Below, piece after piece: positions 1 through 16,438 of a DNA stretch of 64,000 bases. The translations under genes were made by a program, and so were the position numbers. How positions within the stretch are numbered: position 1 is the stretch's first letter; each line of letters starts with the position of its first letter. A model generated the notes under the pieces. The model was given only the letters and a program-made list of their open reading frames with translations, was not told the origin of the DNA and made no database searches. Source of the DNA: an uncultured Methanomassiliicoccales archaeon (lineage in GTDB: Archaea > Thermoplasmatota > Thermoplasmata > Methanomassiliicoccales > CAZOLG01); assembly GCA_964580935.1 (NCBI GenBank), contig CAZOLG010000001.1, positions 188,745 through 252,744 on the forward strand, written 5' to 3'.

Positions 1-128
1 TGGTGAATGTGATGATCTCAGTTTCCCGTCTGATGGTGGAGTACGATATTGAGGAGATGGATCTCAATCCCATATTCGGCAATGAGGATGGAGTGAAGGT
101 AGCAGACGCAAGGATATTTATTGAATGA
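1..128 (+). CDS. 3' end of a gene truncated by the window edge; C-terminus resembles ATP-grasp (beta) part of ADP-forming acyl-CoA synthetase
   Basis: Frame 3 is open from base 3 to TGA at 126-128. It translates to ...MVEYDIEEMDLNPIFGNEDGVKVADARIFIE*. The D-L-N-P ... DARI pattern is typical of ACD/ATP-grasp C-termini. Confidence 0.35.
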   Translation, partial: VNVMISVSRLMVEYDIEEMDLNPIFGNEDGVKVADARIFIE

Positions 129-312
129 TCATGGTCCAATACTTGCACACGTAACCGACTTGATAGGTTAAACCCTCTTCTCCGGAACCTCATCGGAAAT
201 AATCTGGTGAGGTCCTCATCAACTTCTTCAAAGACATGATTCTCTGTTCTTTTTGAAGGAAAGTTATATAGTTTCAATGAACGATAGTGTATCAACTGAT
301 GGGGGGAATTCT

Positions 313-1371
313 ATGACCGAGGAAATGACGTCAATGGAACGTTTTGAGGCCGCTTTGAACCTTGAACAGCCCGACATGGTACCGGCATCATTATTTGGAG
401 GGATTTTTGAAGTCCACTACGTGCCCGGGATGGATGTCGTTGATTACGGAACGAGCGGAGAGAACATGGCCAAGGCCCATATCGCCTTCTACGAAGAGGT
501 CGGGGGAGACACTATCTATTGTCTTTCCGACATGGGCCTTATCGTGGAAGGTTGGGGCGTGAAGATGGACTTGCCCAAGGAACCGAACATACACATGGCT
601 CTGGGAGAGTTCGCTGTTGAAGAACCTGGAGATTGGGAAGAGTTGGAAGCCCTTGATCCGGAAACGGACGGAAGGATGCACCTGTACCTCGACGCATGTC
701 GCATTTGCAACGATAAGTACGGGGACAAAGTACCCATCGGAGTGTCTTTGCCCAGTCCTTTCACTACCACCACCCATGTCTGCCAGATGGAAACAGCCCT
801 GACTCACATGATAATGGAGCCTGAGGCTTTCCAGAGCGGTCTTGATACGATTACTGAAACGGTGGCCGATTTCATAAACGCCTGTTCGGACAACGGAGCC
901 TTCTTCACTGGTTATCTGACCACAAGAGCTTCAAAGGAAATCACCACAGAGGAACAGTACAGGGGCTTCGGAGCACCTTCTGACAAGAAGGTATTCAAGA
1001 AGACTCCGGGCATATCGCACATTCCGCATATCTGTGGAGTAGAGCCTATGTTTGACCTGATAGAAGAATATGCCAGGGAATTCGACAACGTGAAGGGTAT
1101 CTCCTGGTGGGATCAGGGAGCTGATCCGAACCTTGAAGAGGCCAAGAAAGGCTGGGGAGACGTACTGGCAATCATGGCCGGTGTGGATCACACTGAGATC
1201 CTGGTCGACGGTCCGGCAAGTGCTATCGAGGCCCAGATCAAGAAATCCTGTGAGATCGCCATGGAAGGTGGAGGGTTCATCCTTGCACCTGGCTGTGAAG
1301 TCGCTCCGCAGACACCGAAAGAACACCAGAAAGCCTACATCAAGGCCGCAAGAAAATATGGTAAGTACTGA
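313..1371 (+). CDS. URO-D family corrinoid methyltransferase (MtaA/MtbA/MtsA-like, Zn-dependent), paralog 1
   Basis: ORF 253..1371. Start set at ATG 313 because MTEEMTSMERFEAAL parallels MTTEMTGLERVHAAL of paralog 2. Zn-ligand motifs HICGVEP and LAPGCEV are present. A G-rich RBS lies before 313 and a TATA-like AAGTTATATAG at about 260. Confidence 0.85.
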   Translation: MTEEMTSMERFEAALNLEQPDMVPASLFGGIFEVHYVPGMDVVDYGTSGENMAKAHIAFYEEVGGDTIYCLSDMGLIVEGWGVKMDLPKEPNIHMALGEFAVEEPGDWEELEALDPETDGRMHLYLDACRICNDKYGDKVPIGVSLPSPFTTTTHVCQMETALTHMIMEPEAFQSGLDTITETVADFINACSDNGAFFTGYLTTRASKEITTEEQYRGFGAPSDKKVFKKTPGISHIPHICGVEPMFDLIEEYAREFDNVKGISWWDQGADPNLEEAKKGWGDVLAIMAGVDHTEILVDGPASAIEAQIKKSCEIAMEGGGFILAPGCEVAPQTPKEHQKAYIKAARKYGKY

Positions 1372-1373
1372 AA

Positions 1374-1408
1374 CTGGCCGAAGGCCAGCTTTCGTTTTTT
1401 ATTTTTTT
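1374..1408 (+). terminator. Hairpin plus T-tracts downstream of methyltransferase 1
   Basis: CTGGCC-GAA-GGCCAG stem-loop (1374..1388) is followed by TTTCGTTTTTTATTTTTTT. Confidence 0.5.
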
Positions 1409-1460
1409 CGGCCCTGCAAGAAATCAGAATCTTAAATCGATATATAATCGGAGTGATTGA

Positions 1461-2126
1461 ATGGATGAAGAAATGAAGGATAGGATATACGAACATATAG
1501 TTAACGGTAAAATCAAAGAGTCAGCCGGTCTTGGTGAAGAGCTGTTCGAGGCGGGGGTGGACAGCAAAGAGATTGGCAAGGTATTGATAAAAGCCATGAA
1601 CAAGGTCGGTCATGACTACAGGGAGAGAGATATCGCTCTGCCCCAGTTGATCATGGCCACCCAGGCGTTCAAGAAACTACTTCTTCCTTATGTTGGAAAG
1701 TCCGAAGCCGAGGAGGGCGTAGTAGTAATGGGTGTAGCTGCAAACGATATCCATGACATCGGAAAGAACCTTGTGGTGGGCATGCTGCAGGTCTACGGGT
1801 TCGAGGTCCACGATCTCGGCAAAGATGTTCCATTGGACAAGTTCCCGGCTAAGGCGGAGGAAGTAGGAGCTAATATAGTGGGGGCCGGAACCCTGCTCAC
1901 TGCTACCATGCCCGAGCTGGAGGACATCCTCAAGAAGATGGACGAAGCGGGCTTGAGACCAGATACCAAGTACATGGTAGGCGGCGCACCGATCACCACT
2001 ACCTTCGCTGAACGTATTGGAGCCGAGGGCTACGCAACAGATGCCATACTCGCCGTTCAAACCGCCAAGGCATTGGTGAAGGGCGAGAAATCATATCTAG
2101 CCTCCAGAGAAGATAGAAAGGCTTGA
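1461..2126 (+). CDS. Corrinoid (B12-binding) methyl-carrier protein (MtaC/MtbC/MtsB-like)
   Basis: 221 aa with an N-terminal helical cap and a Rossmann B12 domain. The base-off/His-on motif D-x-H-x-x-G is present (AANDIHDIGKN), with GG motif MVGGAP. Confidence 0.9.
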   Translation: MDEEMKDRIYEHIVNGKIKESAGLGEELFEAGVDSKEIGKVLIKAMNKVGHDYRERDIALPQLIMATQAFKKLLLPYVGKSEAEEGVVVMGVAANDIHDIGKNLVVGMLQVYGFEVHDLGKDVPLDKFPAKAEEVGANIVGAGTLLTATMPELEDILKKMDEAGLRPDTKYMVGGAPITTTFAERIGAEGYATDAILAVQTAKALVKGEKSYLASREDRKA

Positions 2127-2148
2127 AGATTACGATCGAGGGATTACC

Positions 2149-3201
2149 GTGACCACAGAAATGACAGGTCTAGAGAGAGTACATGCTGCGCTGAATCACG
2201 AGGGTCTGGACTGCGTCCCGATCACGGGGATGGGTTGGACCATCGGTGCGTTCAGTGGTGGCTACACCACCACCGAATACGCACAGGATGCGAAAAAGAT
2301 GGCCAAGGGTCAGATAGCTTTCTACGAGAAGACAGGTATCGATCTGCTGCATCCCACCTCCGATATGGGACAGATGGCCGAAGGGTTCGGAGTGAAGATG
2401 CTTTACAAAGACGGTCTGACTCCTATGCTCGATGAATTCGCGGTCAAAGAGCCGGAGCAGTGGGAGGAACTGGAAGTACTCGATCCGTACAGAGACGGAA
2501 GGATGATGGTCTCAATTGAGGCCATAGAGGCCATCAGAGATGAACTTGGAGACAGTGTTTCTATCATGCCTTATGCGCCCAGTCCACTGACCAGTGCAAC
2601 ACATGTCAGGGCTATGGAGAATGTAATGATTGATATCGTCATGTACCCCGACCTCCTGAAGAAAGGACTCGAGATCATGGCCGATACGGTGATCGAATAT
2701 ATGGATGCCATGCTCGATGCAGGAGCTGATGGTATTCTGTACGCCACTACCAGGGCATCGGCGGAGATTACCACCAAGGACCAGTACCGTGAATTCGGGT
2801 TCGATTACGACAAGACAGTGTTGGAGTCGATCAGTAGCCAGGATGGGATGAACATACTCCATGTCTGTGGCGTAGAACCGTTGTTCAAGATGCTCAGCGA
2901 GCTGCCGAACTCCAACGGTATCAACTGGTGGGACATGGGAAGCAATCTCAATATGAAGGAGGCCAAGGAACAGTTTGGAGAGAAGGTGTGTCTCGTTGGA
3001 GGACTTGACCAGACCGATGCCCTTCTCTACGGTACAATAGAGGAAGTGAAAGAAGAGGCCAGGACCTCTATTGAAGAGGGTCTGGGAGACGATCATACGG
3101 GGTTCATACTGGCACCGGGATGTGAGGTGTCCCCCGAGAACCCTCTGGATAAGATCCGGGCCGCTTCTGAGGTGGCCCACAAGTATAAAATCCGGGGGTA
3201 G
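2149..3201 (+). CDS. URO-D family corrinoid methyltransferase (MtaA/MtbA/MtsA-like, Zn-dependent), paralog 2
   Basis: 350 aa, roughly 40% identical by eye to paralog 1. Zn motifs LHVCGVEP and LAPGCEV. GTG start; alternative ATG at 2161. Confidence 0.85.
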   Translation: MTTEMTGLERVHAALNHEGLDCVPITGMGWTIGAFSGGYTTTEYAQDAKKMAKGQIAFYEKTGIDLLHPTSDMGQMAEGFGVKMLYKDGLTPMLDEFAVKEPEQWEELEVLDPYRDGRMMVSIEAIEAIRDELGDSVSIMPYAPSPLTSATHVRAMENVMIDIVMYPDLLKKGLEIMADTVIEYMDAMLDAGADGILYATTRASAEITTKDQYREFGFDYDKTVLESISSQDGMNILHVCGVEPLFKMLSELPNSNGINWWDMGSNLNMKEAKEQFGEKVCLVGGLDQTDALLYGTIEEVKEEARTSIEEGLGDDHTGFILAPGCEVSPENPLDKIRAASEVAHKYKIRG

Positions 3202-3243
3202 AGAGAAGTATGAGGTAAACGGTTTAAATAAAGGAGGAAACGC

Positions 3244-4869
3244 ATGTCAAAAGAATTGAAACTCGACACAGCTATCGTCAACGCTGACGTGATAACTGTC
3301 GATGAGAACATGAGCAGAGCGGGAGCAGTGGGTATTGTTAACGGTAAGATCGTGGCCATTGGTTCTGATAACGAAATCAAAGCAATGATCGGAGACGGTA
3401 CTGAGGTTATCGATGCTAAAGGGAAAACATTGGTCCCGGGTTTTAACGACTCTCACATGCATCCACTGCTTTACGGTCATTTCGCGACCGGGGTGGACCT
3501 GGTGGGCGTCAAGAATATCGATGATTTTCTGCAGAGAGTGAAAAAGAAGGCCGATGAAACTCCAGACGGCAAGATGATCCTGGGCTTCGGATGGAATCAG
3601 GAGCAGATGGACGAGGGCCGGTACCCCACCCGATGGGAAGTGGATGAGGTGACGCCCGATAACCCCGCGTTCCTGATTCACTACAACGCTCATATCTATC
3701 TGGCGAATACCAGACTACTGGAAGAAGAGGGGATCACAGCAGAGACTCCGGACCCTGATGGGGGAACCATTGTCAAGAACGACGAGGGAGAACCCACAGG
3801 GATATTGCTGGAGAACGCTATCGACCTCATTGCCCCCGGATTCCTTGAGACCGGGGCCGGCCTTTTCTCATACGATCAGAGCAAAGAGGCCCTGAGAGTG
3901 GCCGCTGAGGCGGCAGCGGAGAACGGTCTGACTTCGATCATGGACGTATTGGCGGGCGACGCGCAGGTCAAGGCGTACCAGGAACTCGAAAGGGAGAACA
4001 AACTTCCAGTACGTGTCAACATACAGCTGATGTTCCAGCTGCTCGACCAGATGATCGATCTAGGCATCAAGAGCGGTTTCGGAGATGACAAGATCAGGCT
4101 GAACGGAGTCAAGTTGATACTTGATGGGTCTTTGAGCAGTAGGACGGCTGCACTCAGGGAGCCCTACGCTGATGATCCCAGTACCAAAGGGATCATGAGA
4201 CACTCGCCCGAATTCCTGAAGGACGTGGTGCTCAAGGCCCAGCAGAACGATATTAGGGTAGACATACACGCTCTGGGAGACGGGGCGAGCGAGGTAGTGC
4301 TCAACGTGTTCGAAGAGGTACAGGAGGAACATCCGGTGGAAGACCCCCGATTCAAGATCAGCCACTGTCTGATCCTGGCTGAAGACCTCATCGAGAGGTA
4401 CGCAAATCTGGGAGTGATCGCTTCCGTACAACCAGTATTCGCCATGAAGGGACAGTATTGGGCCCCGCGACTGGTAGGGCCAGAGAGAGTCCAGTACTCA
4501 CACGCCTGGAAGCGCCTGGATGATGCAGGTGTCACCATGTGTTCTGGAACGGACGCCCCCATCGAAGACATGAATCCTCTGATGAACATCTACTCTGCGG
4601 TAACCCGAAAGGACCCTGAGGGCAAACCGGAGAACGGATGGCGCCCTGATCAAAAATTGGATGTGGCGACCGCCCTGAGGATGGTAACCCAATGGGGAGC
4701 GTATGCTACGGCTGAAGAAGACGTGAAAGGCTCCATAGAAGTCGGAAAACTGGCCGATATGGCCCTGATTTCAGACAACCCATTCGAGGTCGAACCTGAC
4801 GCCATCAAGGATATCAAAGTCTTGATGACCATAGTGGGCGGAAAGCCCGTGTTCTCAAGAGACTTCTAA
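3244..4869 (+). CDS. Metal-dependent amidohydrolase, Amidohydro_3 / YtcJ-like
   Basis: 541 aa. Motifs: H-x-H metal motif FNDSHMHP, DIHALGDGA, ISHC, GTDAP. RBS AAGGAGGA lies upstream. Confidence 0.8.
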   Translation: MSKELKLDTAIVNADVITVDENMSRAGAVGIVNGKIVAIGSDNEIKAMIGDGTEVIDAKGKTLVPGFNDSHMHPLLYGHFATGVDLVGVKNIDDFLQRVKKKADETPDGKMILGFGWNQEQMDEGRYPTRWEVDEVTPDNPAFLIHYNAHIYLANTRLLEEEGITAETPDPDGGTIVKNDEGEPTGILLENAIDLIAPGFLETGAGLFSYDQSKEALRVAAEAAAENGLTSIMDVLAGDAQVKAYQELERENKLPVRVNIQLMFQLLDQMIDLGIKSGFGDDKIRLNGVKLILDGSLSSRTAALREPYADDPSTKGIMRHSPEFLKDVVLKAQQNDIRVDIHALGDGASEVVLNVFEEVQEEHPVEDPRFKISHCLILAEDLIERYANLGVIASVQPVFAMKGQYWAPRLVGPERVQYSHAWKRLDDAGVTMCSGTDAPIEDMNPLMNIYSAVTRKDPEGKPENGWRPDQKLDVATALRMVTQWGAYATAEEDVKGSIEVGKLADMALISDNPFEVEPDAIKDIKVLMTIVGGKPVFSRDF

Positions 4870-4887
4870 AACCATTTAATTCCCTCC

Positions 4888-4902
4888 TCTTTTCTTTTTT
4901 TT
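4888..4902 (+). terminator. T-rich tract after amidohydrolase (archaeal-type terminator candidate)
   Basis: CTCTTTTCTTTTTTTT lies immediately after the TAA stop at 4867-4869. Confidence 0.3.
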
Positions 4903-4988
4903 CAAAAATACCAACAGATTATGGAAGAGGAGAAGCAAAGGTATTTCTCTTAATTTCCTACTATTATAAGCAATAAAAGGGGGATTAG

Positions 4989-6326
4989 ATGACTGAAGAA
5001 ACTCTCAATAAGATTAAGATCAACGTAGAACCGCCGGGACCGAAGGCCAAAGAGATTATCGATAAAGATAAGAAAGTGATGGCCACCACCAACAAGGTGA
5101 TGCCTGTGGTGGCCAAGAAGGGGAGCGGCCTGTACGTGCAGGATGTTGACGATAACGTCTACCTGGACTTCCAGTCGGGGATCGCAGTCAACAATACTGG
5201 TCACTGTCACCCGAAGGTGGTCAAGGCCATCCAGGACCAGGCGGCGAAACTCATCCATTTCCCAGGGATACTGCTTTCTCAGAATCTTGAAGGGAGGGTG
5301 GCTGAGAAGCTCAGTGAGATCACTCCCGGAGATTTCAACAAGAAGACCTATTTCACCTGCAGCGGCGCTGGAGCGATCGACACCGCTATCAAGGTGGCCA
5401 GGTGGTCGACCAAGAGGCCGAGGAACCTGGCGTTCATCGGCTCTTTCCACGGTAAGTCCATCGGTGCTCTGAGCCTCACCGCCAGTAAGGTACCGTACAG
5501 GAAAGGATTCATGCCCGAAATGCCTGGAGTTCTTCACGTGCCCTACGCATACTGCTACAGGTGTCCTTATAAAATGACGTATCCAGACTGTGACCTGTAC
5601 TGCGCAAAGATCATCGATGAGATGTACCTTTCAAAGTTCTTCCCCGGGGAAGAAGTGGCCGCGTTCTTCGTGGAGCCCATACAGGGAGAGGGGGGCTACA
5701 TAGTTCCTCCGAAGGGATGGCATCAAGAGATTAAAAAGATATGTGAGAAACACGGGATACTCTTCGTAGCTGACGAAGTCCAATCGGGATTTGGCAGAAC
5801 GGGAGAGTGGTTCGCCATAGAGCATTTCGATGTGGTACCTGATGTCATGGTAGTGGCCAAGGGGATCGCCTCAGGGATGCCTATGAGTGCCTGCATCTTC
5901 AATGAGAAGTACGACATTAAGCAGCCCGGGGCCCATGCCACCACCTTTGGTGGTAACCTGGTCACCTCAGCCGCCTCTCTGGCCACCATCGAGGTGATGG
6001 AAGAGGAGAATATGATCGAGAACGCGGCGGAGAAGGGCGAATACCTGCTATCCAGACTCGAGGAGTTGAAGGAGAAATACGAAATCGTGGGGGATGTGAG
6101 GGGCAGGGGTTTGATGACCGCTATCGAGATTGTCAAGGACAAAGACTCCAGAGAACCAGACAAGGAGACCAGAGATGCGATCTGTATGGACGCCATGAGG
6201 AAGGGTCTGTTGATCCTGTTCTGTGGGCACAGCAGCATTAGGATAATACCGGCCTTGAATGTCACAGAGGCACAGATCGATATTGCCATAGAGATGATGG
6301 AGGAAGAGATTAAGGACAAGAGCTAG
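4989..6326 (+). CDS. Class-III PLP aminotransferase (GabT/ornithine/acetylornithine aminotransferase family)
   Basis: 445 aa. Motifs: DEVQSGFGRTGEWFA, the PLP-lysine context VVAKGIASGMP, and TFGGN. Confidence 0.85.
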   Translation: MTEETLNKIKINVEPPGPKAKEIIDKDKKVMATTNKVMPVVAKKGSGLYVQDVDDNVYLDFQSGIAVNNTGHCHPKVVKAIQDQAAKLIHFPGILLSQNLEGRVAEKLSEITPGDFNKKTYFTCSGAGAIDTAIKVARWSTKRPRNLAFIGSFHGKSIGALSLTASKVPYRKGFMPEMPGVLHVPYAYCYRCPYKMTYPDCDLYCAKIIDEMYLSKFFPGEEVAAFFVEPIQGEGGYIVPPKGWHQEIKKICEKHGILFVADEVQSGFGRTGEWFAIEHFDVVPDVMVVAKGIASGMPMSACIFNEKYDIKQPGAHATTFGGNLVTSAASLATIEVMEEENMIENAAEKGEYLLSRLEELKEKYEIVGDVRGRGLMTAIEIVKDKDSREPDKETRDAICMDAMRKGLLILFCGHSSIRIIPALNVTEAQIDIAIEMMEEEIKDKS

Positions 6327-6475
6327 TTCGCAATCCCTCGCTTACAGGGGGCGAATTGTGGTCTCCAAACCCCTTTCTATTTCTATCCCACAAATTCTTT
6401 AAAACACCTGAGGGTGTAGCTATCGAGATCAGCATCATGGATCGAAAAGGGCCCTGAAGCTGGAGTCGGAGACAA

Positions 6476-8332
6476 TTACTCCCCTATCCCCAACCGCTCG
6501 ACGACGGTTGGAAAAAGAGAGAGGTCCATGTGAGGGATGAACATCGCCTTGTAGAATTCGTCCTCAAAATCTTCCTGAGCCGCAAGTTCGAGGTATTCTA
6601 TGCGCTCCACCATCTCGTCCGCCCTCTTCCTCTTCCCACCGTTCAATACGGCCATCTTACACCCCGTACCTGCCGCGTTACCCACTCCTCTTATTCTCCC
6701 CAAAGAGACCTCAGGGAAGATACCGATATTGAGTGCATTTACCGGTGAAATGTAATTGCCGAATGCCCCTGCAAGGAATATATTCTTCAGCTGTTCAGGT
6801 CTGACGTTCCTACGGTTCATCAACGTAGAAGAACCGACATACAAGGCTGCCTTGGCGTACTGTATCTGTTCGATATCATTCTGAGTGATCGAAATTAGCT
6901 TATCAGATCCAGACTCACCCTCTTCCGCCAGCACGTACTCCAGCTCTCCATCGACCATCCTGACTCTGGAACTACCTATCTCCTTGCGGATTCTTCCTGA
7001 GTAGTCGATGACCCCACTCCCCAGCATCTCTGAAATGGCGTCCACGACGCCGGATCCACAGAGCCCGATCGGGGGGGCGTCTCCTATGGTGCCACATTGC
7101 ACCTCGAAATCATCGCTGATAGTGACTGATTCGATCACCCCCTCGGTGGCCCGCATGCCATATTTCAGATTGGCCCCTTCGAAGGCCGGACCGGCTGCGG
7201 TGGAGGTGGAGATTATACCATCCTCAGTGATCAACGAGATCTCTCCATTGGTGCCAATATCTATTACCAGAGAAGGGGCCTCCAGGTCTTCCAGTTCGCA
7301 GGCCAGAAGGGCCGCCACATGGTCTGCTCCCACGAAGCCGGCGATGTTGGGCAGAGAAGAGACATATCCCTCTTTATTGACATTGATTCCCAGTTCCGAG
7401 GCCTTGAACTCCAGGCTGCTACAGGAGACCGGTACATATGGACACAGGGCGAGATGCCTGGTATCCAGCCCGAAAAGGAAGTGGTGCATGGCCGTATTGC
7501 CCACTATTCCCACTTCATATATCCTCTCTTTGCTTATTCCTGCAGAAGAGCAGAGATCTCCTACTAAAGTGTCAATACACTCAACAATCGACTCCTGAAG
7601 AATAGAGGTCCCGCCTTCTTTTTCCATGGACATCGTGATCCTGGAGATCACGTCGTCACCATACTTGATCTGAGGATTCATCATCGACCGCACCGAGAGG
7701 TGAGCCCCGTTCTCCAGGTTCAACAGATAGCCTACAACTGTGGTGGTCCCTATATCTACAGCCACTCCATATATGTCGTGTGATGCCCCGGCAGAAAGAT
7801 CGAGAACTTCGCCATCTTTACTCACCACCCAGACTTCGGAGTTTGACCTCAGTATATGGGGGAGATCTCTCAGGAGCGATAATCCGATATTCATTGGTCT
7901 AGCCCTGCCTAGAGCATCAATTAACCTCTCGAAATCGCTGATCTGATGCTCCAGAGAGGGGTCCTTAATGACCACCCTCCTCACCTCGATAACCGGATCT
8001 ATGTCTAGATCGGAGAGAGAGTCCTCTAAGATCACCTGTTCATGCCTAAAATACTCAGATGGAATCTCGATATCAAGGTCGTCCACTACCTCAAGTTGGC
8101 AGGCCAACCTCATACCGGAATCCAACTCCTCTTGAGAAAGTTGCTCCCTTTCAATTTCACCTATTGGAGCCGTTCCCTTCTTGACAACTATTCGGCAGTT
8201 AGTACATGAACCCCGGCCACCACAGGTGGACTCTATGGATATGTTTGCCCTGTTCAGAACTTCGAGCAGTTGCTCACCGATTGTCTTGGTTTCAATGTAC
8301 TTGTCTGTGGGTTGAATGTGGATTATGGGCAT
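6476..8332 (-). CDS. Reductive activator of corrinoid enzymes (RACo/RACE-type ASKHA ATPase with N-terminal 2Fe-2S ferredoxin domain)
   Basis: 618 aa. N-terminal plant-type ferredoxin cysteines CGGRGSCTNC...LACQ. ASKHA phosphate motifs VAVDIGTTTVVGY and VIDIGTNGEISL. COG3894-like length. Confidence 0.8.
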   Translation of the reverse strand: MPIIHIQPTDKYIETKTIGEQLLEVLNRANISIESTCGGRGSCTNCRIVVKKGTAPIGEIEREQLSQEELDSGMRLACQLEVVDDLDIEIPSEYFRHEQVILEDSLSDLDIDPVIEVRRVVIKDPSLEHQISDFERLIDALGRARPMNIGLSLLRDLPHILRSNSEVWVVSKDGEVLDLSAGASHDIYGVAVDIGTTTVVGYLLNLENGAHLSVRSMMNPQIKYGDDVISRITMSMEKEGGTSILQESIVECIDTLVGDLCSSAGISKERIYEVGIVGNTAMHHFLFGLDTRHLALCPYVPVSCSSLEFKASELGINVNKEGYVSSLPNIAGFVGADHVAALLACELEDLEAPSLVIDIGTNGEISLITEDGIISTSTAAGPAFEGANLKYGMRATEGVIESVTISDDFEVQCGTIGDAPPIGLCGSGVVDAISEMLGSGVIDYSGRIRKEIGSSRVRMVDGELEYVLAEEGESGSDKLISITQNDIEQIQYAKAALYVGSSTLMNRRNVRPEQLKNIFLAGAFGNYISPVNALNIGIFPEVSLGRIRGVGNAAGTGCKMAVLNGGKRKRADEMVERIEYLELAAQEDFEDEFYKAMFIPHMDLSLFPTVVERLGIGE

Positions 8333-8340
8333 TAGCCTGA

Positions 8341-8865
8341 TTAGAGATAATGACGATATATGCTGAATATATCAGTGATCTGGCTTATTTCGTAACTGGC
8401 AAAGCACTTCTTACTGATTATCAATTCCCTCACAATGGCTTCAGCCTCCTTAGGGTCCTCAGCATGGAAGAGGAGAATGGCGCCGAAGGCTCCTATTGCG
8501 CTGAATACCTGTATGGTGGCATCATGCTCCTTTAGCTCGATAATCATCTCTTCCTGTTCTTTGGAAGACAGACCTGTATCGAATTTGAGGATGGCGGCGT
8601 ATATCAGGTCACCGAGCCGATCGTAGTAGATCAGATTTGCCTTCTGGAGGACATTGAGTTCTCTCAACCGCTCAATGCGGTACCCCACCGAACGGCTGGT
8701 CATACCCATTTCTTCTCCTATCCTCTCGTATGTCCAGTCCGGATTGTTGGCCAATAGCCTCAATAGTTCTTTGTCCTTTTCATCGAGCTTCTTTCTTCTG
8801 GCTATGATATCACCTTTAGGACGGAGCAACAAATGATTGGTCTCAAATGGTATAAATATTCTCAT
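8341..8865 (-). CDS. Lrp/AsnC-family transcriptional regulator
   Basis: HTH segment LDEKDKELLRLLANNPDWTYERIGEEMGMTSRSVGYRIERLRE, followed by a RAM-like C-terminal domain. Confidence 0.75.
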   Translation of the reverse strand: MRIFIPFETNHLLLRPKGDIIARRKKLDEKDKELLRLLANNPDWTYERIGEEMGMTSRSVGYRIERLRELNVLQKANLIYYDRLGDLIYAAILKFDTGLSSKEQEEMIIELKEHDATIQVFSAIGAFGAILLFHAEDPKEAEAIVRELIISKKCFASYEISQITDIFSIYRHYL

Positions 8866-9140
8866 ATCCAGTGTTCGGGGTTAATTGTAGAGCAAAGCAC
8901 TACGGGGTAACCCGGTGTACGAGCAATATGTCACATGAGGTGAATATTGACAACCCATCTCAGTTATCAATCCTGTCTGGGGACCCATCATTTTGCCAAG
9001 TATTATAAGAACCGGCTGCTTTCCGGATTATTAGTTGCAAAGAAAGATTGATGGCACTGTACAATGTCAGCATCCTATATTCATGTCTCTGCTATTGAGA
9101 AGGAGACGATGAATATCAGGATCACCAGGAGAGATGTTTC

Positions 9141-9737
9141 ATGGATATGGCTATCGTTTCAGGATTTCTGGGCTCTGGTAAGACGACTATGATCCTTTCG
9201 GTCATCGAAAGGATAAATAAATTGAAGGATCACAAGGTGGCGATTATAGTCAACGACTTTGGCAATATCGGGATCGACGCCAAGGTGATGAATAAATTCG
9301 GCTTGCAGGTCAAAGAACTGCAGGGAGGGTGCATATGTTGCACACTTGGTTCCTTCCTGCTGGATACGGTTCAGAAAGTAGTTAATAACTTCTCGCCGGA
9401 TCTGATCATCATTGAACCAACCGGTATCGCCGATCCCAAGAGTATTCTGTCCACCATGGAGCGGTACGAAGGGCATGTTGAGAGCATAAACACCCTGGTG
9501 CTCATGGATGCTCCCCGGTCTGAGGTCCATATGAAGGTGCTAAAGAGGCCCTTCGAACATCTGGTCGAGGCGGCAGACATGATCGCGGTCAACAAGATCG
9601 ATGAGGTGAATGAGGAATCTGTGAATGAGATGATCAGGAAATTGAGGGATGTTGGATATGATAAGGAGATTGTACCCACCTCTGCCACCGAGGGGATTAA
9701 CCTGGACAGCATTGTAGAATTCCTGGTGAGCTCATGA
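9141..9737 (+). CDS. COG0523/CobW-family G3E GTPase (metallochaperone), GTPase domain only
   Basis: Walker A GFLGSGKTT, metal-binding CxCC motif GGCICCT, Walker B IIIEPTG, and NKID specificity motif. Confidence 0.85.
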   Translation: MDMAIVSGFLGSGKTTMILSVIERINKLKDHKVAIIVNDFGNIGIDAKVMNKFGLQVKELQGGCICCTLGSFLLDTVQKVVNNFSPDLIIIEPTGIADPKSILSTMERYEGHVESINTLVLMDAPRSEVHMKVLKRPFEHLVEAADMIAVNKIDEVNEESVNEMIRKLRDVGYDKEIVPTSATEGINLDSIVEFLVSS

Positions 9738-10177
9738 TTACTGACGACCTATCCGCCCACGCCAGAAGGATCGAGGTCCGCTTTGGAGAGCAGATGGACG
9801 GTTCAGAGGTCGAGGAGGCCGTTATAGAGTTTATGTCCGGCGTCTCCAGGCGGTGTGTGGAGGAGGGGGCCACCCTGATAGGGCACATTAAGTCTATTAC
9901 CGAGGCAGCCGGCCAGGAGGGTTACTTCTCCTGCAGCGTGACCAATAACGACGGGAGAGTCAATTCGAACGGCGCTCTTAGGGACGGAATCATTTCTCTG
10001 GATATGGTCTTGAACGTGATAATCTACGGTCTGGAGGAAGCAAAGATCGAGGAGATCATAGATGTAGAGTTGAAGAGATCATTTTACTGGGAAGAGATAG
10101 AGACATGTTCAGAATCTCTGGATATCGAAGAGGATCATGTCCATGAGGGACACGAGCATGGCGAGCACCATCATTGA
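9734..10177 (+). CDS. His-rich acidic protein, probable detached C-terminal partner of the COG0523 GTPase
   Basis: ATGA overlap with the upstream stop. The C-terminus is HVHEGHEHGEHHH. Confidence 0.55.
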   Translation: MITDDLSAHARRIEVRFGEQMDGSEVEEAVIEFMSGVSRRCVEEGATLIGHIKSITEAAGQEGYFSCSVTNNDGRVNSNGALRDGIISLDMVLNVIIYGLEEAKIEEIIDVELKRSFYWEEIETCSESLDIEEDHVHEGHEHGEHHH

Positions 10178-10280: not shown

Positions 10281-11825
10281 ATGTGGTGCGCAACCTACTG
10301 GTTCGAAATCGATTTGTCCGATCTCGGAATGGAAGTGGAAGGATCGAGCATGAAAGCTGGTATCTCCGTTCAATTGCTCAGAGGTATGATCGGTAACCCC
10401 CTCACCCGGAAAATACTCTCAGGCATGAGTAAATACTGCGGGGCTGACGAGAAGAATCGCATAGAGGTGGGCCTGGAACTTTATCTTGGGCTGAGGGAAG
10501 ACGCCTGCAGCATGTGCAGGATCTCGGAGAAGGTCCTGACTTCTGTATTGAACAGGGGAGGGAAGGCGTTCGGGCTTACCAAAGAGCAATTGAGGCAGAG
10601 ATTCTCCGATCCTTACTGGAGAATGGGGCTGGTGAACGTCATTAGAGGCATCGCCGATTTTGGAGTTACTAAACCCTTCGTTCCCGGCGCCCCCTTCCAG
10701 GTGGTTTGGGACGTCACCTATGCATGCAACCTGAAATGCAAACACTGCTATGCCTCTGCCGGCAAGAAGCACGAAGACGAACTCACCAACCAGGAATCAA
10801 TAGAGTTGGTTGACCGGCTGGCCAGACTCGGGATATCCTCACTGGCCTTCTCGGGCGGGGAGCCACTAGTCAGGCCGGATATAATCGAACTCGTTGAGAG
10901 GGCGTCCGATCATGGAATGTACGTCTCGATGGCTACCAACGGCACGTTGATCGATAAGGAGAAGGCCACAGAGCTGAAAGAGGCGGGGCTGGAATATCTC
11001 CAGATCAGCCTGGACGGTGCCACTCCGGCCAGTCATAATGATTTCCGTAGTACCCCCGGGGCTTTCGAGAGGACCGTTGAGGGGGTAAGAAACGCCGTAC
11101 AGGAAGGCTTCTTTGTCAATATCTCTACCACATTGACCAGGGAGAAGGTGGACGAGATGCCTCAGATATTCGATGTGTGTTCCGAGCTTGGTATCGACTG
11201 GTTCATGGGGTACAACTTCATACCCACCGGCCGGGGGGAAAATATTCTGAGTCTTGATCTCTCCCCCGAGGAAAGGGAAGCAGTATTGAATCAATTTCTG
11301 GACAGGATGGGGGATGTGGATTTCGAGATACTCACTACTGCACCCCAGTTCGCGAGGGTCGCCCTGGAGAGGAGGGAGGGCGACAGTACTATCGTTCCCA
11401 CCCATTTCTATAACCAGGAAGTCGACGACTCCCTATTCAACCTGACCGAGTTTGTGGGCGGCTGTGGAGCGGGCAGGTTCTACATGGCCATCAGAGCAAA
11501 TGGGGATATCGACCCCTGTGTCTTCTTCCCTCTCACAGTGGGAAACGTGAGGGACGATGATCTCCAGGAGATATGGAAGAATAACGAGGTGTTCAAGGAG
11601 TTGAGGGACAAGGATCTACTCCAGGACCAGTGCGGGAGCTGCGAGTACAGATACCACTGTGGCGGCTGCAGGGCCAGGGCATACACCTATTTTGATGATT
11701 ACCTTGCACCTGATCCTGGGTGCATCAAGAATCTTGAACACTACCGGGAAGTTGTCCAGAATTCCTTTATTGATATTGAAGAGAAAGCACCATCAATAGA
11801 ACCGGAAACGATGGTCAACGAGTGA
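10281..11825 (+). CDS. Radical SAM enzyme with C-terminal SPASM-like Cys cluster and about 130-aa Cys-containing N-terminal extension
   Basis: CNLKCKHCY (Cx3Cx2C). C-terminal cysteines GGCGAG...DPCVF...CGSCEYRYHCGGC. The start is ambiguous (10281, 10326 or 10350). Confidence 0.8.
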   Translation: MWCATYWFEIDLSDLGMEVEGSSMKAGISVQLLRGMIGNPLTRKILSGMSKYCGADEKNRIEVGLELYLGLREDACSMCRISEKVLTSVLNRGGKAFGLTKEQLRQRFSDPYWRMGLVNVIRGIADFGVTKPFVPGAPFQVVWDVTYACNLKCKHCYASAGKKHEDELTNQESIELVDRLARLGISSLAFSGGEPLVRPDIIELVERASDHGMYVSMATNGTLIDKEKATELKEAGLEYLQISLDGATPASHNDFRSTPGAFERTVEGVRNAVQEGFFVNISTTLTREKVDEMPQIFDVCSELGIDWFMGYNFIPTGRGENILSLDLSPEEREAVLNQFLDRMGDVDFEILTTAPQFARVALERREGDSTIVPTHFYNQEVDDSLFNLTEFVGGCGAGRFYMAIRANGDIDPCVFFPLTVGNVRDDDLQEIWKNNEVFKELRDKDLLQDQCGSCEYRYHCGGCRARAYTYFDDYLAPDPGCIKNLEHYREVVQNSFIDIEEKAPSIEPETMVNE

Positions 11826-14081: not shown

Positions 14082-14105
14082 TCGAGGCCAGCAAAGTAGG
14101 ACTCG

Positions 14106-14117
14106 ATATAAATATAT
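14106..14117 (-). promoter_or_regulatory. TATA-box-like element about 25-30 nt upstream of the topA ATG (leaderless-type spacing), inside the att repeat
   Basis: The minus strand reads ...GCAATATATTTATAT. The distance to ATG 14081 fits archaeal TATA-TSS spacing. Confidence 0.4.
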
Positions 14118-14135
14118 TGCTTGTAAAATCACTGG
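14106..14135. repeat. attL (30-bp direct repeat)
   Basis: Identical to 23129..23158. The flanking bases differ (G/A on the left, A/C on the right). Confidence 0.9.
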
Positions 14136-14291
14136 ATAAACAGAAAAGTGCCCTCCTCAGGGCATTCCCGCAGGATGCACAAACCTCTTTCTTCTTTATT
14201 TATACTGGATATGATTAAGGAATAGTGTACAGTTTAACAATAGTTATATACGATAATTAACGAAATCAAGAGGCTCTTTGTGTCCTCTATA

Positions 14292-14317
14292 GCTGTCATA
14301 GCCGTCACAGCTGTCAT
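14292..14317. repeat. Three tandem 9-bp units (AGCTGTCAT-like), inverted copy of 21898..21923
   Basis: GCTGTCATAGCCGTCACAGCTGTCAT is the reverse complement of 21898..21923 with 1 mismatch in 26. Confidence 0.8.
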
Positions 14318-14544
14318 ACTCTTAGAAATTTCGATAATCAGTCTAACCATTTTAAGTTAAGATTAAGTAATAGAAATCATAAAGTAATTTTCTCTTACTT
14401 TCGTATTAGATATTAGAATTAGTTAGTATTCACACTACTGGACTGTTCAAATTGAGGTCTGATATCGTGTATTAGAGTTATTAGAATTCACCGTCTAAAA
14501 TCTTAATTAGCATAAGTGTTGATTATATTCAGGGGATTAAGATC

Positions 14545-14862: not shown

Positions 14863-15032
14863 CATTATCCGATAATGTCATCAGGAAATTACGGAGTAGT
14901 AATAAGTGCAACTTCTGTTGGCGGTGGATTTGGAGATGTGAGTGACCAAATGGAACTCACCTTAGAGTGGGGAGAGACATATTCATTTGTACTATACGTT
15001 TGAATTCAAGCGAATTGTAACTCTACTGAAGC

Positions 15033-16288: not shown

Positions 16289-16438
16289 GATATCACCACC
16301 TGTCTCCCCACTATTTACAGTCTTCCGTCCACCTACTACGCCTCCCGGCCGGCGGTGAGACGGGCCCTCACCCCCTGGTGTTACCCCTCCCCTTTTTCCT
16401 AATAATTCGCCTTTTTCCTATATATATAATTTACCATC

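What the first reader, a model, noticed from the sequence alone, without database searches (positions are those of the whole stretch)
253..10177. Corrinoid methyl-transfer locus with two Zn-type URO-D paralogs wired to a hydrolase, a transaminase and a bacterial-type activase
Seen: paralog 1, corrinoid protein and paralog 2 are tightly spaced. Both paralogs keep the H-x-C...C zinc/thiol-activating ligands (HICG/HVCG and APGCEV).

They are followed co-directionally by an Amidohydro_3 hydrolase and a class-III aminotransferase. A convergent RACo-type activase, an Lrp regulator and a COG0523 metallochaperone complete the locus.

Established: MT1 + corrinoid protein + MT2 + activase is the architecture of methylotrophic and O-/S-demethylating systems (Mta, Mtb, Mts, Mtp, Mto, Mtv). 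None of the MttB/MtmB/MtbB/MtaB-type MT1 families is present here. MT1 would therefore be a URO-D protein, as in methylthiol (MtsA/MtpA) or methoxy (MtvB/MtoB-like) systems.

Inference: the hydrolase and transaminase may feed or clear an amide/amine-bearing methyl donor, which would define a new substrate class. TAG terminates about 17 of about 55 genes in this window, so the host is probably not a pyrrolysine-using methylamine methanogen.
Basis: partly seen in the sequence, partly recalled or inferred. Interest (0 to 1): 0.7.

Follow-up and report, generated by a model that had tools for sequence, protein, structure and literature searches.

The report
Uncharacterised methyl-transfer operon coupled to amine breakdown
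This archaeal operon pairs a vitamin-B12-type methyl-transfer system, built from two unusual zinc enzymes, with enzymes that break down an amide or amine, so it probably lets wetland methane-producing archaea use a methylated compound that nobody has yet identified.

Summary
Window 313-8865 encodes URO-D paralog 1, a corrinoid protein, URO-D paralog 2, a YtcJ-type amidohydrolase and a class-III aminotransferase. A RACo activase with a 2Fe-2S domain and an Lrp regulator lie convergent to these.

The operon is cut by the window start. Bases 3-125 are the end of an ADP-forming acyl-CoA synthetase gene.

The arrangement recurs in more than 25 distinct loci, almost all from soil, peat or wetland Methanomassiliicoccales MAGs. 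Relatives add a glutaconate-type CoA transferase, the acyl-CoA synthetase and often an AOR-type aldehyde:ferredoxin oxidoreductase.

The aminotransferase is in every full cluster type. The hydrolase marks one subtype and elsewhere travels with paralog 1 and an AmiS/UreI amide/urea channel.

Both paralogs keep an invariant His-Cys-Cys site and resemble the CoM methylase MtaA most, at about 25% identity and below all curated cut-offs. Only 24 of 1.84 billion cluster representatives match at E<=1e-30.

One variant locus carries a CoA-disulfide-reductase-like gene.

Best reading: a new Mtp/Mts-like methylthiol-type system wired to amide, amine, aldehyde and acid catabolism. The Mto/Mtv (methoxy) reading is not supported. 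The substrate is unknown.

The parts
3..125 (+). 3' end of the ADP-forming acyl-CoA synthetase beta-subunit gene. The operon continues upstream of the window.
   Evidence: tblastn against L001 ACD-beta gives 66% identity over 41 aa, E=3e-15. In relatives, CoA-transferase A/B and ACD alpha/beta sit directly upstream of URO-D paralog 1.
313..1371 (+). URO-D paralog 1 (UROD1). Proposed substrate-specific methyl donor:cob(I)amide methyltransferase (MT1). An alternative TTG start lies at 253.
   Evidence: PF01208 E=3e-44. Below all MtaA/MtbA cut-offs. AlphaFold pLDDT 92.9; best structural match is MtaA 4AY8 with TM 0.86-0.89. H239/C241/C328 are invariant. It falls in the hydrolase-associated UROD1 subclade.
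1461..2126 (+). Corrinoid (B12-binding) methyl-carrier protein.
   Evidence: PF02310 + PF02607. Nearest NCBIfam models are MtbC and pyl_corrinoid at 144 bits, below their cut-offs. DIHDIG motif is read in the sequence.
2149..3201 (+). URO-D paralog 2 (UROD2). Proposed methylcobamide:thiol methyltransferase (MT2, CoM in methanogenic hosts).
   Evidence: PF01208 E=4e-58. It is the more MtaA-like of the two: 99 vs 78 bits to 4AY7 and 173 vs 134 bits to TIGR01463. It carries the same invariant His-Cys-Cys site.
3244..4869 (+). YtcJ-type binuclear metal amidohydrolase (Amidohydro_3). Proposed to hydrolyse an amide and release the amine or acid skeleton.
   Evidence: PF07969 E=1.5e-124. H71, H73, K290, H342, H374 and D437 are invariant over 32 homologues. 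The only close structures are the uncharacterised 3IGH and 3ICJ. It is adjacent to a URO-D gene in 17 loci and to AmiS/UreI in 7 loci.
4989..6326 (+). Class-III (omega-type) aminotransferase.
   Evidence: PF00202 E=4e-120. NCBIfam PRK05769 scores 566.6, above the 552 cut-off. Nearest structure is 7VNO at 415 bits. It is present in cluster types A, B, D and E.
6476..8332 (-). RACo-type ATP-dependent reductive activase of the corrinoid protein, with an N-terminal 2Fe-2S ferredoxin domain ('bacterial type').
   Evidence: Fer2 + RACo_linker + Raco_middle + RACo_C_ter. AcsV model 470 bits, RamA model 114 bits, both below cut-off. Conserved convergent position.
8341..8865 (-). Lrp/AsnC-family regulator, 8 bp upstream of RACo on the same strand.
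   Evidence: HTH_AsnC-type E=2e-9. The ortholog sits next to RACo in types A, B and E, at 65-77% identity where measured (types A and B); in type E its place and family come.
9141..10177 (+). Split COG0523-type metallochaperone: a cobW GTPase (9141-9737) plus a His-rich 147-aa partner (9734-10177). Peripheral; probably not a core member.
   Evidence: PF02492 E=3e-41; the second ORF has no family hit. A cobW neighbour is seen only in the window and in L001/L002, two assemblies of one locus.

Best explanation
The locus is the downstream part of a conserved catabolic operon of Methanomassiliicoccales-lineage archaea. It joins a corrinoid-dependent methyl-transfer system to a route that degrades the demethylated carbon skeleton.

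Proposed mechanism:
1. UROD1, the more divergent paralog, removes a methyl group from a heteroatom-bound donor, most likely a thioether (methylthio compound). The leaving atom sits on its His-Cys-Cys zinc. The methyl goes to the Co(I) form of the 221-aa corrinoid protein.
2. UROD2, the more MtaA-like paralog, passes the methyl from methyl-Co(III) to a thiol acceptor. This would be coenzyme M in methanogenic hosts.
3. RACo re-reduces accidentally oxidised Co(II) at the expense of ATP.
4. The skeleton is processed by the YtcJ amidohydrolase (amide to amine or acid) and the omega-aminotransferase (amine to aldehyde). In relatives an AOR-type tungsten enzyme follows (aldehyde to acid plus reduced ferredoxin).
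5. A glutaconate-type CoA transferase and an ADP-forming acyl-CoA synthetase then handle the acid and its CoA ester.
6. The Lrp-type regulator controls the set.

Shown: gene content, conserved synteny, the metal-ligand sets, the fold, the family's narrow distribution and its distance from curated families.

Inferred: the direction and roles of the two paralogs, the sulfur nature of the donor, CoM as acceptor, and the order of the catabolic steps.

The substrate itself is not identified. Candidates are methionine-derived methylthio amines, amides or acids of the methylmercaptopropionate (MMPA) kind.
For: Domains and coordinates.

Synteny:
- The same order (CoA-transferase A/B, ACD alpha/beta, UROD1, corrinoid protein, UROD2, amidohydrolase, aminotransferase, AOR(-), RACo(-), Lrp(-)) occurs in L001, L003/4/19 and L011, and in part in 12 further contigs.
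- Type B loci have the same order without the hydrolase or AOR (L009/22, 24, 25, 27, 29, 31).
- A Bathyarchaeia version interleaves AOR and the aminotransferase between UROD1 and the corrinoid gene (L007/8/32).
- The window itself begins with the ACD-beta 3' end.
- UROD1 and UROD2 form separate clades that split in parallel into A, B and D subtypes, so the clusters co-evolve as units.

Thiol-type chemistry:
- H239/C241/C328 are invariant in 38 of 38 family members of both paralogs, while outgroups have HxH...C.
- His-Cys-Cys marks S/Se-methyl UroD methyltransferases, and O-demethylases replace the Cys (PMC10418091).
- The best sequence and structure match is the CoM methylase MtaA.
- A variant locus (L059/L060) embeds a CoA-disulfide-reductase-like gene (TIGR03385, 478 bits against a 579 cut-off) between the aminotransferase and the UROD1-AmiS-hydrolase genes.

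Precedent for a dedicated MtaA-family MT1 that needs a second methyltransferase: MtpA methylates mercaptopropionate but not CoM (bioRxiv 10.1101/548461).

Hydrolase-to-aminotransferase link: the pair is also adjacent in a Methanomethylicia contig that has no methyltransferase genes (L056).

Amide substrate hint: an AmiS/UreI channel gene (PF02293, E=1.7e-29) lies next to UROD1 + hydrolase in L012, L018, L020, L033, L037 and L059/60.

Accessory enzyme types: AOR (1AOR, 440 bits), glutaconate CoA-transferase family (1POI, 5MZW), archaeal ACD.

Hosts: the fen_33 and fen_65 MAGs (f__UBA472, g__FEN-33) are treated as methanogens with a separate MtbA-like gene in PMC10805028.
Against: - No biochemical datum exists for any member.
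- The sulfur assignment rests on ligand analogy. MtaB activates methanol with a Glu-Cys-Cys zinc (my own knowledge), so cysteine-rich zinc does not strictly exclude O or N.
- A transaminase is logically required after N-demethylation but not after S-demethylation. The Bathyarchaeia cluster is flanked by SsuA-family (sulfonate/taurine-type) binding proteins. Both points favour N-methyl amines such as N-methyltaurine.
- Both paralogs share the same extra invariant residues (D73, R205, W265, W266, D292). That may mean both bind similar substrates rather than one binding CoM.
- Bathyarchaeia are usually not methanogens, so CoM cannot be the acceptor everywhere.
- I could not name a small uncharged methylthio-amide that is abundant in nature and fits the AmiS/UreI + hydrolase module.
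- The window lacks the AOR gene found in most type A relatives.
- mcrA and CoM biosynthesis could not be checked for the source genome.
Confidence: 0.5

Rival explanations
1. The methyl donor is N-methylated, either an N-methyl amine or an N-methyl amide/lactam/urea. UROD1 removes the N-methyl group. Only then can the omega-aminotransferase deaminate the resulting primary amine, and AOR oxidises the aldehyde. In the hydrolase subtype a small neutral N-methyl amide enters through AmiS/UreI, is demethylated on the zinc-bound amidate and is then hydrolysed.
For: - The aminotransferase is the one catabolic gene present in all full cluster types, and it is interleaved with the methyltransferase genes in Bathyarchaeia.
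- Demethylation as a prerequisite for transamination explains this coupling directly.
- The Bathyarchaeia cluster is flanked by two ABC transporters. The binding protein of one reaches the SsuA family cut-off (164.3 against 163.5), which fits N-methyltaurine going to taurine and then sulfoacetaldehyde.
- The corrinoid protein scores best against methylamine-type models (MtbC, pyl_corrinoid, MtgC).
- AmiS/UreI points to small amides or ureas.
Against: - No UroD-family enzyme is known to demethylate nitrogen.
- Known N-demethylation uses pyrrolysine enzymes or MttB-family enzymes acting on quaternary amines (my own knowledge; compare).
- A His-Cys-Cys zinc is the signature of thiol or selenol alkyl transfer.
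- A secondary amine is a very poor leaving group.
- The CoA-disulfide-reductase-like gene in L059/60 has no role in this scheme.
Confidence: 0.2
2. Both paralogs act on the substrate side. They remove two methyl groups in succession from a dimethylated compound, or act on two related donors, as proposed for SdmB/SdmC of Methanococcus voltae. The transfer to CoM is done by a generic MtaA/MtbA encoded elsewhere.
For: - Both paralogs share the same family-specific invariant residues besides the zinc triad.
- FEN-33 genomes carry a separate, better MtbA homologue (34% identity, 207 bits).
- L024 and L059 carry a third URO-D gene in the cluster.
- MtpA relies on methyltransferases encoded elsewhere.
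- The Sdm/type-1 mlp model has several MtaA-like proteins per corrinoid protein.
Against: - UROD2 is consistently closer to MtaA than UROD1.
- One UROD1 plus one UROD2 is the fixed minimum of every full cluster, as expected for a donor/acceptor pair.
- Extra UROD1 copies occur without extra UROD2 copies in type C.
Confidence: 0.2
3. The system is not for energy metabolism. It salvages sulfur or selenium, or shuttles methyl groups between thiols, for example a corrinoid-dependent methionine/homocysteine interconversion. This is the role proposed for type-1 mlp gene clusters of non-methanogens.
For: - The architecture matches type-1 mlp clusters: several MtaA-like His-Cys-Cys proteins, a corrinoid protein, a RACE/RACo activase and no pterin methyltransferase.
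- The cluster occurs in Bathyarchaeia.
- The regulator is of the Lrp amino-acid type, and an APC amino-acid permease sits in L024.
- The cobW gene weakly resembles the 'CobW-related selenoprotein' family, at 98 bits against a 180 cut-off.
Against: - The operon is embedded in energy-yielding catabolic genes (AOR, ACD, CoA transferase).
- It is nearly confined to an order of obligate methyl-reducing methanogens.
- Several copies or subtypes occur per genome. That pattern suits substrate diversification better than trace-element salvage.
Confidence: 0.08
4. The hydrolase, aminotransferase, CoA-transferase and ACD genes are merely neighbours of an ordinary methylthiol or methanol MT2-type cluster, with no functional link.
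For: - The window lacks AOR, type B lacks the hydrolase, and solo UROD1 copies exist (L005, L006).
- Accessory content therefore varies.
Against: - The adjacency survives divergence down to 50% identity and gene reshuffling across five arrangements and two phyla.
- Intergenic gaps in the window are 22-119 bp on one strand.
Confidence: 0.02

Closest known systems
MtpA/MtpC methylmercaptopropionate system of Methanosarcina acetivorans (with MtsD/F/H or MtaA as second methyltransferase)
   Same: An MtaA-family protein serves as a dedicated thioether:cob(I)amide MT1 beside a small corrinoid protein. A second methyltransferase is needed to reach CoM. The product thiol, 3-mercaptopropionate, is isosteric with CoM, which would suit two similar paralogs.
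   Different: Here the second MtaA-like gene, a RACo activase and a whole amide/amine/aldehyde/acyl-CoA route are encoded together. Sequence relatedness to MtpA could not be measured because no reference sequence was available. The host order differs.
MtsA/MtsB methylthiol:CoM methyltransferase (Methanosarcina barkeri)
   Same: UroD/MtaA-family zinc enzyme plus corrinoid protein acting on dimethylsulfide and MMPA. Thiol-type chemistry.
   Different: MtsA alone performs both half-reactions. Here two conserved paralogs divide the work, and accessory catabolic genes are attached.
MtaA/MtbA methylcobamide:CoM methyltransferases
   Same: Best sequence and structural match (4AY7/4AY8, TM 0.86-0.89, 24-25% identity). 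The HxCG...PGC zinc motif is the same.
   Different: Scores are far below the NCBIfam equivalog and subfamily cut-offs. No MtaB or Mtt/Mtb/MtmB partner is present. The family has its own invariant residues D73, R205, W265-W266 and D292.
Type-1 mlp gene clusters / Sdm system (Kountz and Balskus preprint; Methanococcus voltae sdmABC)
   Same: Several MtaA-like His-Cys-Cys proteins, a corrinoid protein and a bacterial-type activase, without a pterin methyltransferase. S/Se-methyl metabolism is proposed.
   Different: Those clusters are mainly in Firmicutes and Methanococcales, with sulfur or selenium accessory genes. Clade membership was not tested here. Our clusters carry aminotransferase/AOR/CoA-transferase/ACD and hydrolase/AmiS genes instead.
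Mto (Methermicoccus, Archaeoglobus) and Mtv/Odm O-demethylase systems
   Same: UroD-superfamily MT1, corrinoid protein and a 2Fe-2S RACo-type activase in an archaeon.
   Different: Their MT2 is MtrH-like or pterin-binding and methylates H4MPT or H4F. Their MT1 lacks the Cys ligands and lies on the distant CdmB/MtoB branch.
YtcJ-like amidohydrolases (N-substituted formamide deformylase NfdA, phenylurea hydrolases PuhA/B, epsilon-lysine acylase; from my own knowledge)
   Same: Same Pfam family and size, with the full HxH/K/H/H/D binuclear site. These enzymes release an amine from an N-substituted amide or urea, which fits a following transaminase.
   Different: No characterised member is close. 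The nearest structures, 3IGH and 3ICJ, are uncharacterised.

Membership tests
URO-D superfamily (Pfam PF01208) | Full-length match to the URO-D profile and a TIM-barrel UroD fold. | tested here: met
   E=3e-44 and 4e-58 over the full profile. The UROD1 model has pLDDT 92.9 and TM 0.8-0.89 to MtaA and UroD structures.
MtaA / MtbA (methylcobamide:CoM methyltransferase equivalogs NF040654, NF041608) | Score at or above the curated equivalog cut-off (400 / 600 bits). | tested here: not met
   UROD1 scores 101.5 / 80.6 bits and UROD2 scores 135.2 / 107.5 bits.
MtaA/CmuA subfamily (TIGR01463) | Score at or above 235.4 bits. | tested here: not met
   133.9 bits (UROD1) and 173.4 bits (UROD2).
Thiol/selenol-type UroD corrinoid methyltransferases (SCMT-like) | His-Cys-Cys zinc ligand triad at the HxCG and PGC motifs. 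| tested here: met
   H239/C241/C328 are invariant in 37 database homologues and 38 of 38 locus-derived family members. They align to the MtaA motifs. Zinc content itself is not testable with these tools.
Thiol/selenol-type UroD corrinoid methyltransferases (SCMT-like) | Methyl transfer between methylcobamide and a thiol. | not testable with these tools
   Needs enzyme assays.
Mts / Mtp methylthiol systems | Phylogenetic grouping with MtsA or MtpA. | not tested
The supplement of PMC10805028 lists them only by name. In its BLASTP table the entries seen for the FEN-33 orthologues are MtaA matches at 23-25% identity and 77-80 bits.
Mto / Mtv O-demethylase systems | MtrH-like or pterin-binding MT2 in the cluster. 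| tested here: not met
   No such domain occurs in any ORF of 280 aa or more in the window, or in the called genes of the loci for which Pfam families were listed (L001-L009, L059, L060).
Mto / Mtv O-demethylase systems | MT1 of the OdmB/MtvB/MtoB/CdmB branch, with Cys ligands replaced. | tested here: not met
   Both Cys are retained. CdmB matches only UROD2, partially, at E=2e-8, and is not among the 50 best structural matches.
Type-1 mlp gene cluster | At least two MtaA-like proteins, a corrinoid protein and a RACE/RACo activase, with no pterin methyltransferase. | tested here: met
   Gene content, compared with the definition.
Type-1 mlp gene cluster | Proteins fall in the Mlp2 and Mlp3 clades. 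| not tested
   No Mlp reference sequences were available.
RACo/RACE reductive activase | Fer2 + linker + middle + ASKHA C-terminal domains. | tested here: met
   All four Pfam domains are above cut-off. The AcsV 'exception' model (470 against 800) and the RamA subfamily model (114 against 500) are not met.
Methyltransferase-cognate corrinoid proteins | B12-binding_2 cap, B12-binding Rossmann domain and the DxHxxG motif. | tested here: met
   plus the DIHDIG motif read in the translation. The MtbC, MtgC and MtaC equivalog cut-offs are not met.
Amidohydrolase superfamily, YtcJ-like (PF07969) | HxH, carbamylatable Lys, two His and an Asp as metal ligands. | tested here: met
   H71, H73, K290, H342, H374 and D437 are invariant in 32 sequences. 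Profile E=1.5e-124.

The most novel reading that the evidence does not exclude
The operon encodes a self-contained, hydrogen-independent form of methyl-reducing methanogenesis on a so far unrecognised class of methylated amide/amine compounds. The methyl group goes to CoM through two new UroD-type methyltransferases. The two electrons needed to reduce it to methane come from ferredoxin reduced by AOR, when the demethylated, deaminated skeleton is oxidised from aldehyde to acid. The CoA-transferase/ACD pair adds substrate-level ATP. This would free Methanomassiliicoccales, which are regarded as obligately H2-dependent, from external hydrogen on this substrate.
Probability: 0.15. Interest if true: 0.85.

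Novelty: new variant of a known kind. Interest (0 to 1): 0.62.

Why it matters
Methylotrophic methanogenesis in wetlands, peat and soils is a growing term in methane budgets.

This family is narrow: 24 cluster representatives out of 1.84 billion match at E<=1e-30. It nevertheless recurs across Stordalen, SPRUCE, Old Woman Creek, Danish and other soil MAGs, often in two or three subtypes per genome.

In a published survey the UROD1 orthologues of two Stordalen MAGs appear among weak MtaA matches (23-25% identity).

If the system works as proposed, three things follow:
- It defines a new methanogenic substrate class, probably organosulfur and amide- or amine-bearing.
- It gives a second example, after MtpA, of an MtaA-like protein recruited as MT1.
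- It offers a concrete, testable route by which 'H2-dependent' methanogens could draw reducing power from their own substrate.

It also gives a first physiological context to the uncharacterised archaeal YtcJ amidohydrolases and to AmiS/UreI channels in archaea.

Tried and rejected
1. Mto/Mtv-like O-demethylase reading. Rejected because there is no MtrH-like or pterin MT2, the Cys ligands are retained, and the CdmB/MtoB branch is distant.
2. A canonical MtaB or Mtt/Mtb/MtmB partner hidden in the window. None was found among all ORFs of 280 aa or more.
3. The cobW/His-rich pair and the radical-SAM/SPASM gene as core members. Rejected because they are not conserved next to the cluster.
4. Locating the source record. 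The hydrolase and UROD2 are in the protein collection, from one NCBI contig of 587.4 kb, but no gene position or accession is on record. Therefore mcrA, the CoM pathway and pyl genes of the source genome could not be checked.
5. Obtaining MtsA, MtpA or MtoB reference sequences from the supplement of PMC10805028 for a tree. Only names and BLAST tables are held.
6. Contexts of the next-nearest URO-D relatives, meant to anchor function. The Bathyarchaeota PFL18 protein (33%) and the Chloroflexi proteins (25-28%) have HxH...C sites and unrelated neighbours (GFO/IDH oxidoreductase, M20 peptidase, cell-envelope genes).
7. Structure search for the hydrolase. Only the two uncharacterised Pyrococcus proteins are close.
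8. Naming a specific substrate. I considered MMPA/methionine derivatives, S-methylcysteamine-type amides, N-methyltaurine, N-methyl lactams (N-methylpyrrolidone or -piperidone going to GABA or 5-aminovalerate), N-epsilon-modified lysine, and methylurea or methylguanidine. Each explains some genes and none explains all, so none is asserted.

Full report
**What is in the window**

On the plus strand, with gaps of 89, 22, 42 and 119 bp, lie five genes:
- a URO-D protein (313-1371, possibly from TTG 253);
- a 221-aa corrinoid protein (1461-2126) with a B12-binding_2 cap, a B12-binding domain and the motif DIHDIG;
- a second URO-D protein (2149-3201);
- a 541-aa Amidohydro_3 protein (3244-4869);
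- a class-III aminotransferase (4989-6326).

Convergent on the minus strand are a RACo activase with an N-terminal 2Fe-2S domain (6476-8332) and, 8 bp upstream of it, an AsnC/Lrp regulator (8341-8865).

A cobW GTPase (9141-9737) is followed, with a 4-bp overlap, by a His-rich 147-aa ORF that matches no family. The 'COG0523 metallochaperone' is therefore split.

The two URO-D proteins are 42% identical.

The first 125 bases of the window encode the C-terminus of an ADP-forming acyl-CoA synthetase beta subunit (66% identity to the L001 protein). The finding is therefore the downstream part of a longer operon cut by the window edge.

No ORF of 280 aa or more in the 64 kb matches MttB, MtmB, MtbB, MtaB, MtrH or a pterin-binding methyltransferase. 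TAG ends 20 of 57 ORFs.

**How special the two URO-D proteins are**

Both score far below the curated cut-offs for MtaA (101 and 135 bits against 400), MtbA (81 and 108 against 600) and the MtaA/CmuA subfamily (134 and 173 against 235).

The only solved structure matched by paralog 1 is the CoM methylase MtaA (4AY7, E=7e-21). Paralog 2 matches it better (E=2e-27) and matches the chloromethane enzyme CdmB only marginally.

An AlphaFold model of paralog 1 (pLDDT 92.9) superposes best on MtaA (TM 0.86-0.89, rmsd 2.6 A). It does so better than on the uroporphyrinogen decarboxylases, and no O-demethylase-branch protein is among the top 50 matches.

A word-indexed search of 5.8 billion proteins found only 52 relatives. 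Every named one among the closer relatives (40% identity or more) is from Methanomassiliicoccales. A full HMMER pass over 1.84 billion cluster representatives found only 24 at E<=1e-30.

The zinc triad His239/Cys241/Cys328 is invariant in both paralog families. Asp73, Arg205, Trp265, Trp266 and Asp292 are also invariant, and MtaA and the outgroups lack them. The next relatives (33% and 27% identity) have HxH...C instead.

According to Kountz and Balskus (PMC10418091), His-Cys-Cys marks the S/Se-methyl members of the UroD superfamily. O-demethylases replace one or both cysteines.

**Conservation of the neighbourhood**

Contig look-ups and a scan of one genome per GTDB species gave about 50 loci. 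I annotated them by tblastn with the window's proteins and clustered their ORFs. Five arrangements appear.

- Type A is the window's type. The order is CoA-transferase A and B, ACD alpha and beta, UROD1, corrinoid protein, UROD2, amidohydrolase, aminotransferase, then convergent AOR, RACo and Lrp. It is seen in L001, L003/4/19 and L011, and in part in L010, L013-L017, L030, L034, L036 and L040. The window lacks only the AOR.
- Type B has the same order without the hydrolase or AOR (L009/22, L024, L025, L027, L029, L031 and the partial contig L026).
- Type C is UROD1 + amidohydrolase + a 179-aa AmiS/UreI-family channel (PF02293, E=1.7e-29). Five of the six type C loci carry the channel gene, and the sixth contig ends inside the hydrolase gene. 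Type C occurs in genomes that also hold a type B cluster (the fen_33, fen_65, MFD01299, SMAG_U14898 and ERP119294 MAGs).
- Type D, in Bathyarchaeia, is UROD1, AOR, aminotransferase, corrinoid protein, UROD2. It is flanked by two ABC transporters whose binding proteins have NMT1 domains. The one tested reaches the SsuA sulfonate-family cut-off.
- Type E (L059/L060) unites everything in one locus. It holds ACD, two CoA-transferase genes, a UROD2-type gene, the corrinoid protein, the aminotransferase, DUF6951 and a CoA-disulfide-reductase-like flavoprotein (TIGR03385, 478 bits against a 579 cut-off). These are followed by a UROD1-type gene, AmiS/UreI, the amidohydrolase, Lrp, RACo and a third UROD1-type gene.

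A neighbour-joining tree shows UROD1 and UROD2 as separate clades. Each splits in parallel into A(+C), B and D, so the clusters evolve as units. The window's UROD1 belongs to the hydrolase-associated subclade.

That test clearly fails.

**What the accessory enzymes are**

- The aminotransferase passes the PRK05769 cut-off (566.6 against 552). It is closest to the Pyrococcus horikoshii protein 7VNO (415 bits), which I recall is an ornithine/lysine omega-aminotransferase.
- The hydrolase has the complete binuclear site (HxH, Lys290, His342, His374, Asp437). It is close only to two uncharacterised Pyrococcus structures.
- The characterised YtcJ-type enzymes I know of (N-substituted formamide deformylase, phenylurea hydrolases, epsilon-lysine acylase) release an amine from an N-substituted amide or urea.
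- A 43%-identical hydrolase is again followed directly by a class-III aminotransferase in a Methanomethylicia contig with no methyltransferase genes (L056). This suggests that the hydrolase product feeds the transaminase.
- The tungsten enzyme of relatives is AOR-like (1AOR, 440 bits) rather than FOR-like (298 bits).
- The CoA transferase is of the glutaconate CoA-transferase family (1POI, 5MZW).
- The ligase is an archaeal ADP-forming acyl-CoA synthetase.

Together these read as amide to amine to aldehyde to acid to CoA ester.

**Mechanism proposed**

UROD1 is the more divergent paralog and the one that duplicates and travels with substrate-specific genes. I assign it as the donor-specific MT1 that loads the Co(I) corrinoid protein.

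UROD2 is the more MtaA-like paralog. I assign it as the MT2 that methylates a thiol, which would be CoM in methanogenic hosts. RACo repairs Co(II).

The precedent is MtpA. It is an MtaA-family protein that methylates mercaptopropionate and demethylates MMPA, but it cannot use CoM, so a second methyltransferase is required.

Three observations favour sulfur chemistry: the His-Cys-Cys site, the MtaA affinity and the disulfide-reductase gene of type E.

The Stordalen study classes the FEN-33 hosts (f__UBA472) as methanogens and reports expression pointing to methyl-sulfur substrates. Its BLAST table lists the UROD1 orthologues of fen_33 among weak MtaA matches (23-25% identity, 77-80 bits). The same genus has a separate MtbA-like gene.

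One inference follows from established Methanomassiliicoccales energetics. The AOR step yields two ferredoxin electrons per molecule, exactly what one methyl-CoM needs. The operon could therefore make methyl reduction independent of external H2. This is speculative.

**What does not fit, and rivals**

- The universal coupling to an omega-aminotransferase is most simply explained if demethylation unmasks a primary amine, which implies an N-methyl donor. The SsuA-type transporters of the Bathyarchaeia version also fit N-methyltaurine. No UroD-type N-demethylase is known, however, and a secondary amine is a poor leaving group. An N-methyl amide would be chemically easier and would suit the AmiS/UreI + hydrolase module.
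- Both paralogs share all family-specific invariant residues, and some clusters hold a third URO-D gene. Both may therefore act on the donor side, as in the Sdm model, with CoM methylation done elsewhere.
- A non-energetic sulfur/selenium or methionine-related role, as proposed for type-1 mlp clusters, is possible. It is the more likely role in Bathyarchaeia.
- I could not name a small neutral methylthio-amide that is common in nature. The substrate remains open.

**Comparison and novelty**

The system works like the Mtp/Mts methylthiol systems and has the gene architecture of type-1 mlp/Sdm clusters. It is not a member of the curated MtaA or MtbA families (tested, not met) and not an Mto/Mtv system (tested, not met).

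Its fixed association with an amine/amide catabolic route, its own invariant residues and its narrow distribution make it a new variant of a known kind of system.

**Limits**

There is no biochemistry. No tree with MtsA, MtpA or Mlp references could be built because the sequences were not obtainable. The source genome could not be inspected beyond the window.

Noticed in passing
window 33344-34150 (-); also L006 16900-17685: A heliorhodopsin gene (PF18761, E=8e-95) lies in this Methanomassiliicoccales-lineage window. Another lies about 6 kb from a solo UROD1 homologue in a related 838-kb contig. A light sensor or rhodopsin in a lineage of strict anaerobes is unexpected.
   Followed up: no
window 14000-23100: A low-GC stretch (0.41-0.43 against about 0.51 elsewhere) holds ORFs without any Pfam hit, including a 520-aa ORF at 20568-22130. 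It ends with a tyrosine recombinase or integrase (22084-23109). This is probably an integrated mobile element next to the topoisomerase I gene.
   Followed up: no
window 54463-54549 (+): ARAGORN calls a tRNA-Cys(GCA) of 87 nt, but the Rfam tRNA model at gathering score does not report it. It may carry an archaeal intron.
   Followed up: no
window 9141-10177 (+): The COG0523-type metallochaperone is split into a GTPase ORF and an overlapping 147-aa ORF. The second ORF ends in HVHEGHEHGEHHH and belongs to no known family. The GTPase weakly resembles the 'CobW-related selenoprotein' model (98 bits against 180).
   Followed up: partly
window 10281-11825 (+): A radical SAM/SPASM protein related to AhbD/NirJ2 (294 bits against a 500 cut-off) carries an N-terminal extension of about 135 aa. 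It is not conserved next to the methyltransferase cluster in relatives.
   Followed up: partly
window 47530-62264 compared with L005: This stretch holds Aminotran_5, DHO dehydrogenase, HMGL-like, DUF7714, PALP, hexapeptide transferase, CysRS and Fe repressor/FeoA genes. It is syntenic with contig L005. There a solo UROD1 homologue (59% identity) and a hemerythrin gene occupy the place where the window has a PAS histidine kinase (56049-57959).
   Followed up: partly
L059 6203-7977 (and L060): A CoA-disulfide-reductase-like flavoprotein and a DUF6951 protein sit inside a variant of the methyltransferase operon. This hints that a low-molecular-weight thiol or disulfide is handled.
   Followed up: partly
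L056 6302-13520: A Methanomethylicia contig has two divergent YtcJ amidohydrolase genes, a class-III aminotransferase and an S58 (DmpA-type) aminopeptidase, with no methyltransferase genes. This may be an older amide/amine catabolic module.
   Followed up: no
L003/L004 1-5567; L007 1-1624; L020 4200-5690: Glutamate-synthase-like, FrhB-like and very large HdrA/FlpD-like oxidoreductase genes, or a glutamate dehydrogenase gene, lie beside several clusters. They may recycle the 2-oxoglutarate/glutamate pair used by the transaminase.
   Followed up: no
L024 4447-9616; L018 18259-20755: Type B clusters of one lineage are followed by two Na+/H+-exchanger-family genes. In L024 a third MtaA-like URO-D gene and an APC-family amino-acid permease follow as well. 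These are candidate uptake systems for the type B substrate.
   Followed up: partly
window 24251-25651 (-): A second, separate ACD alpha-like gene (Succ_CoA_lig/CoA_binding) lies 18 kb from the cluster.
   Followed up: no
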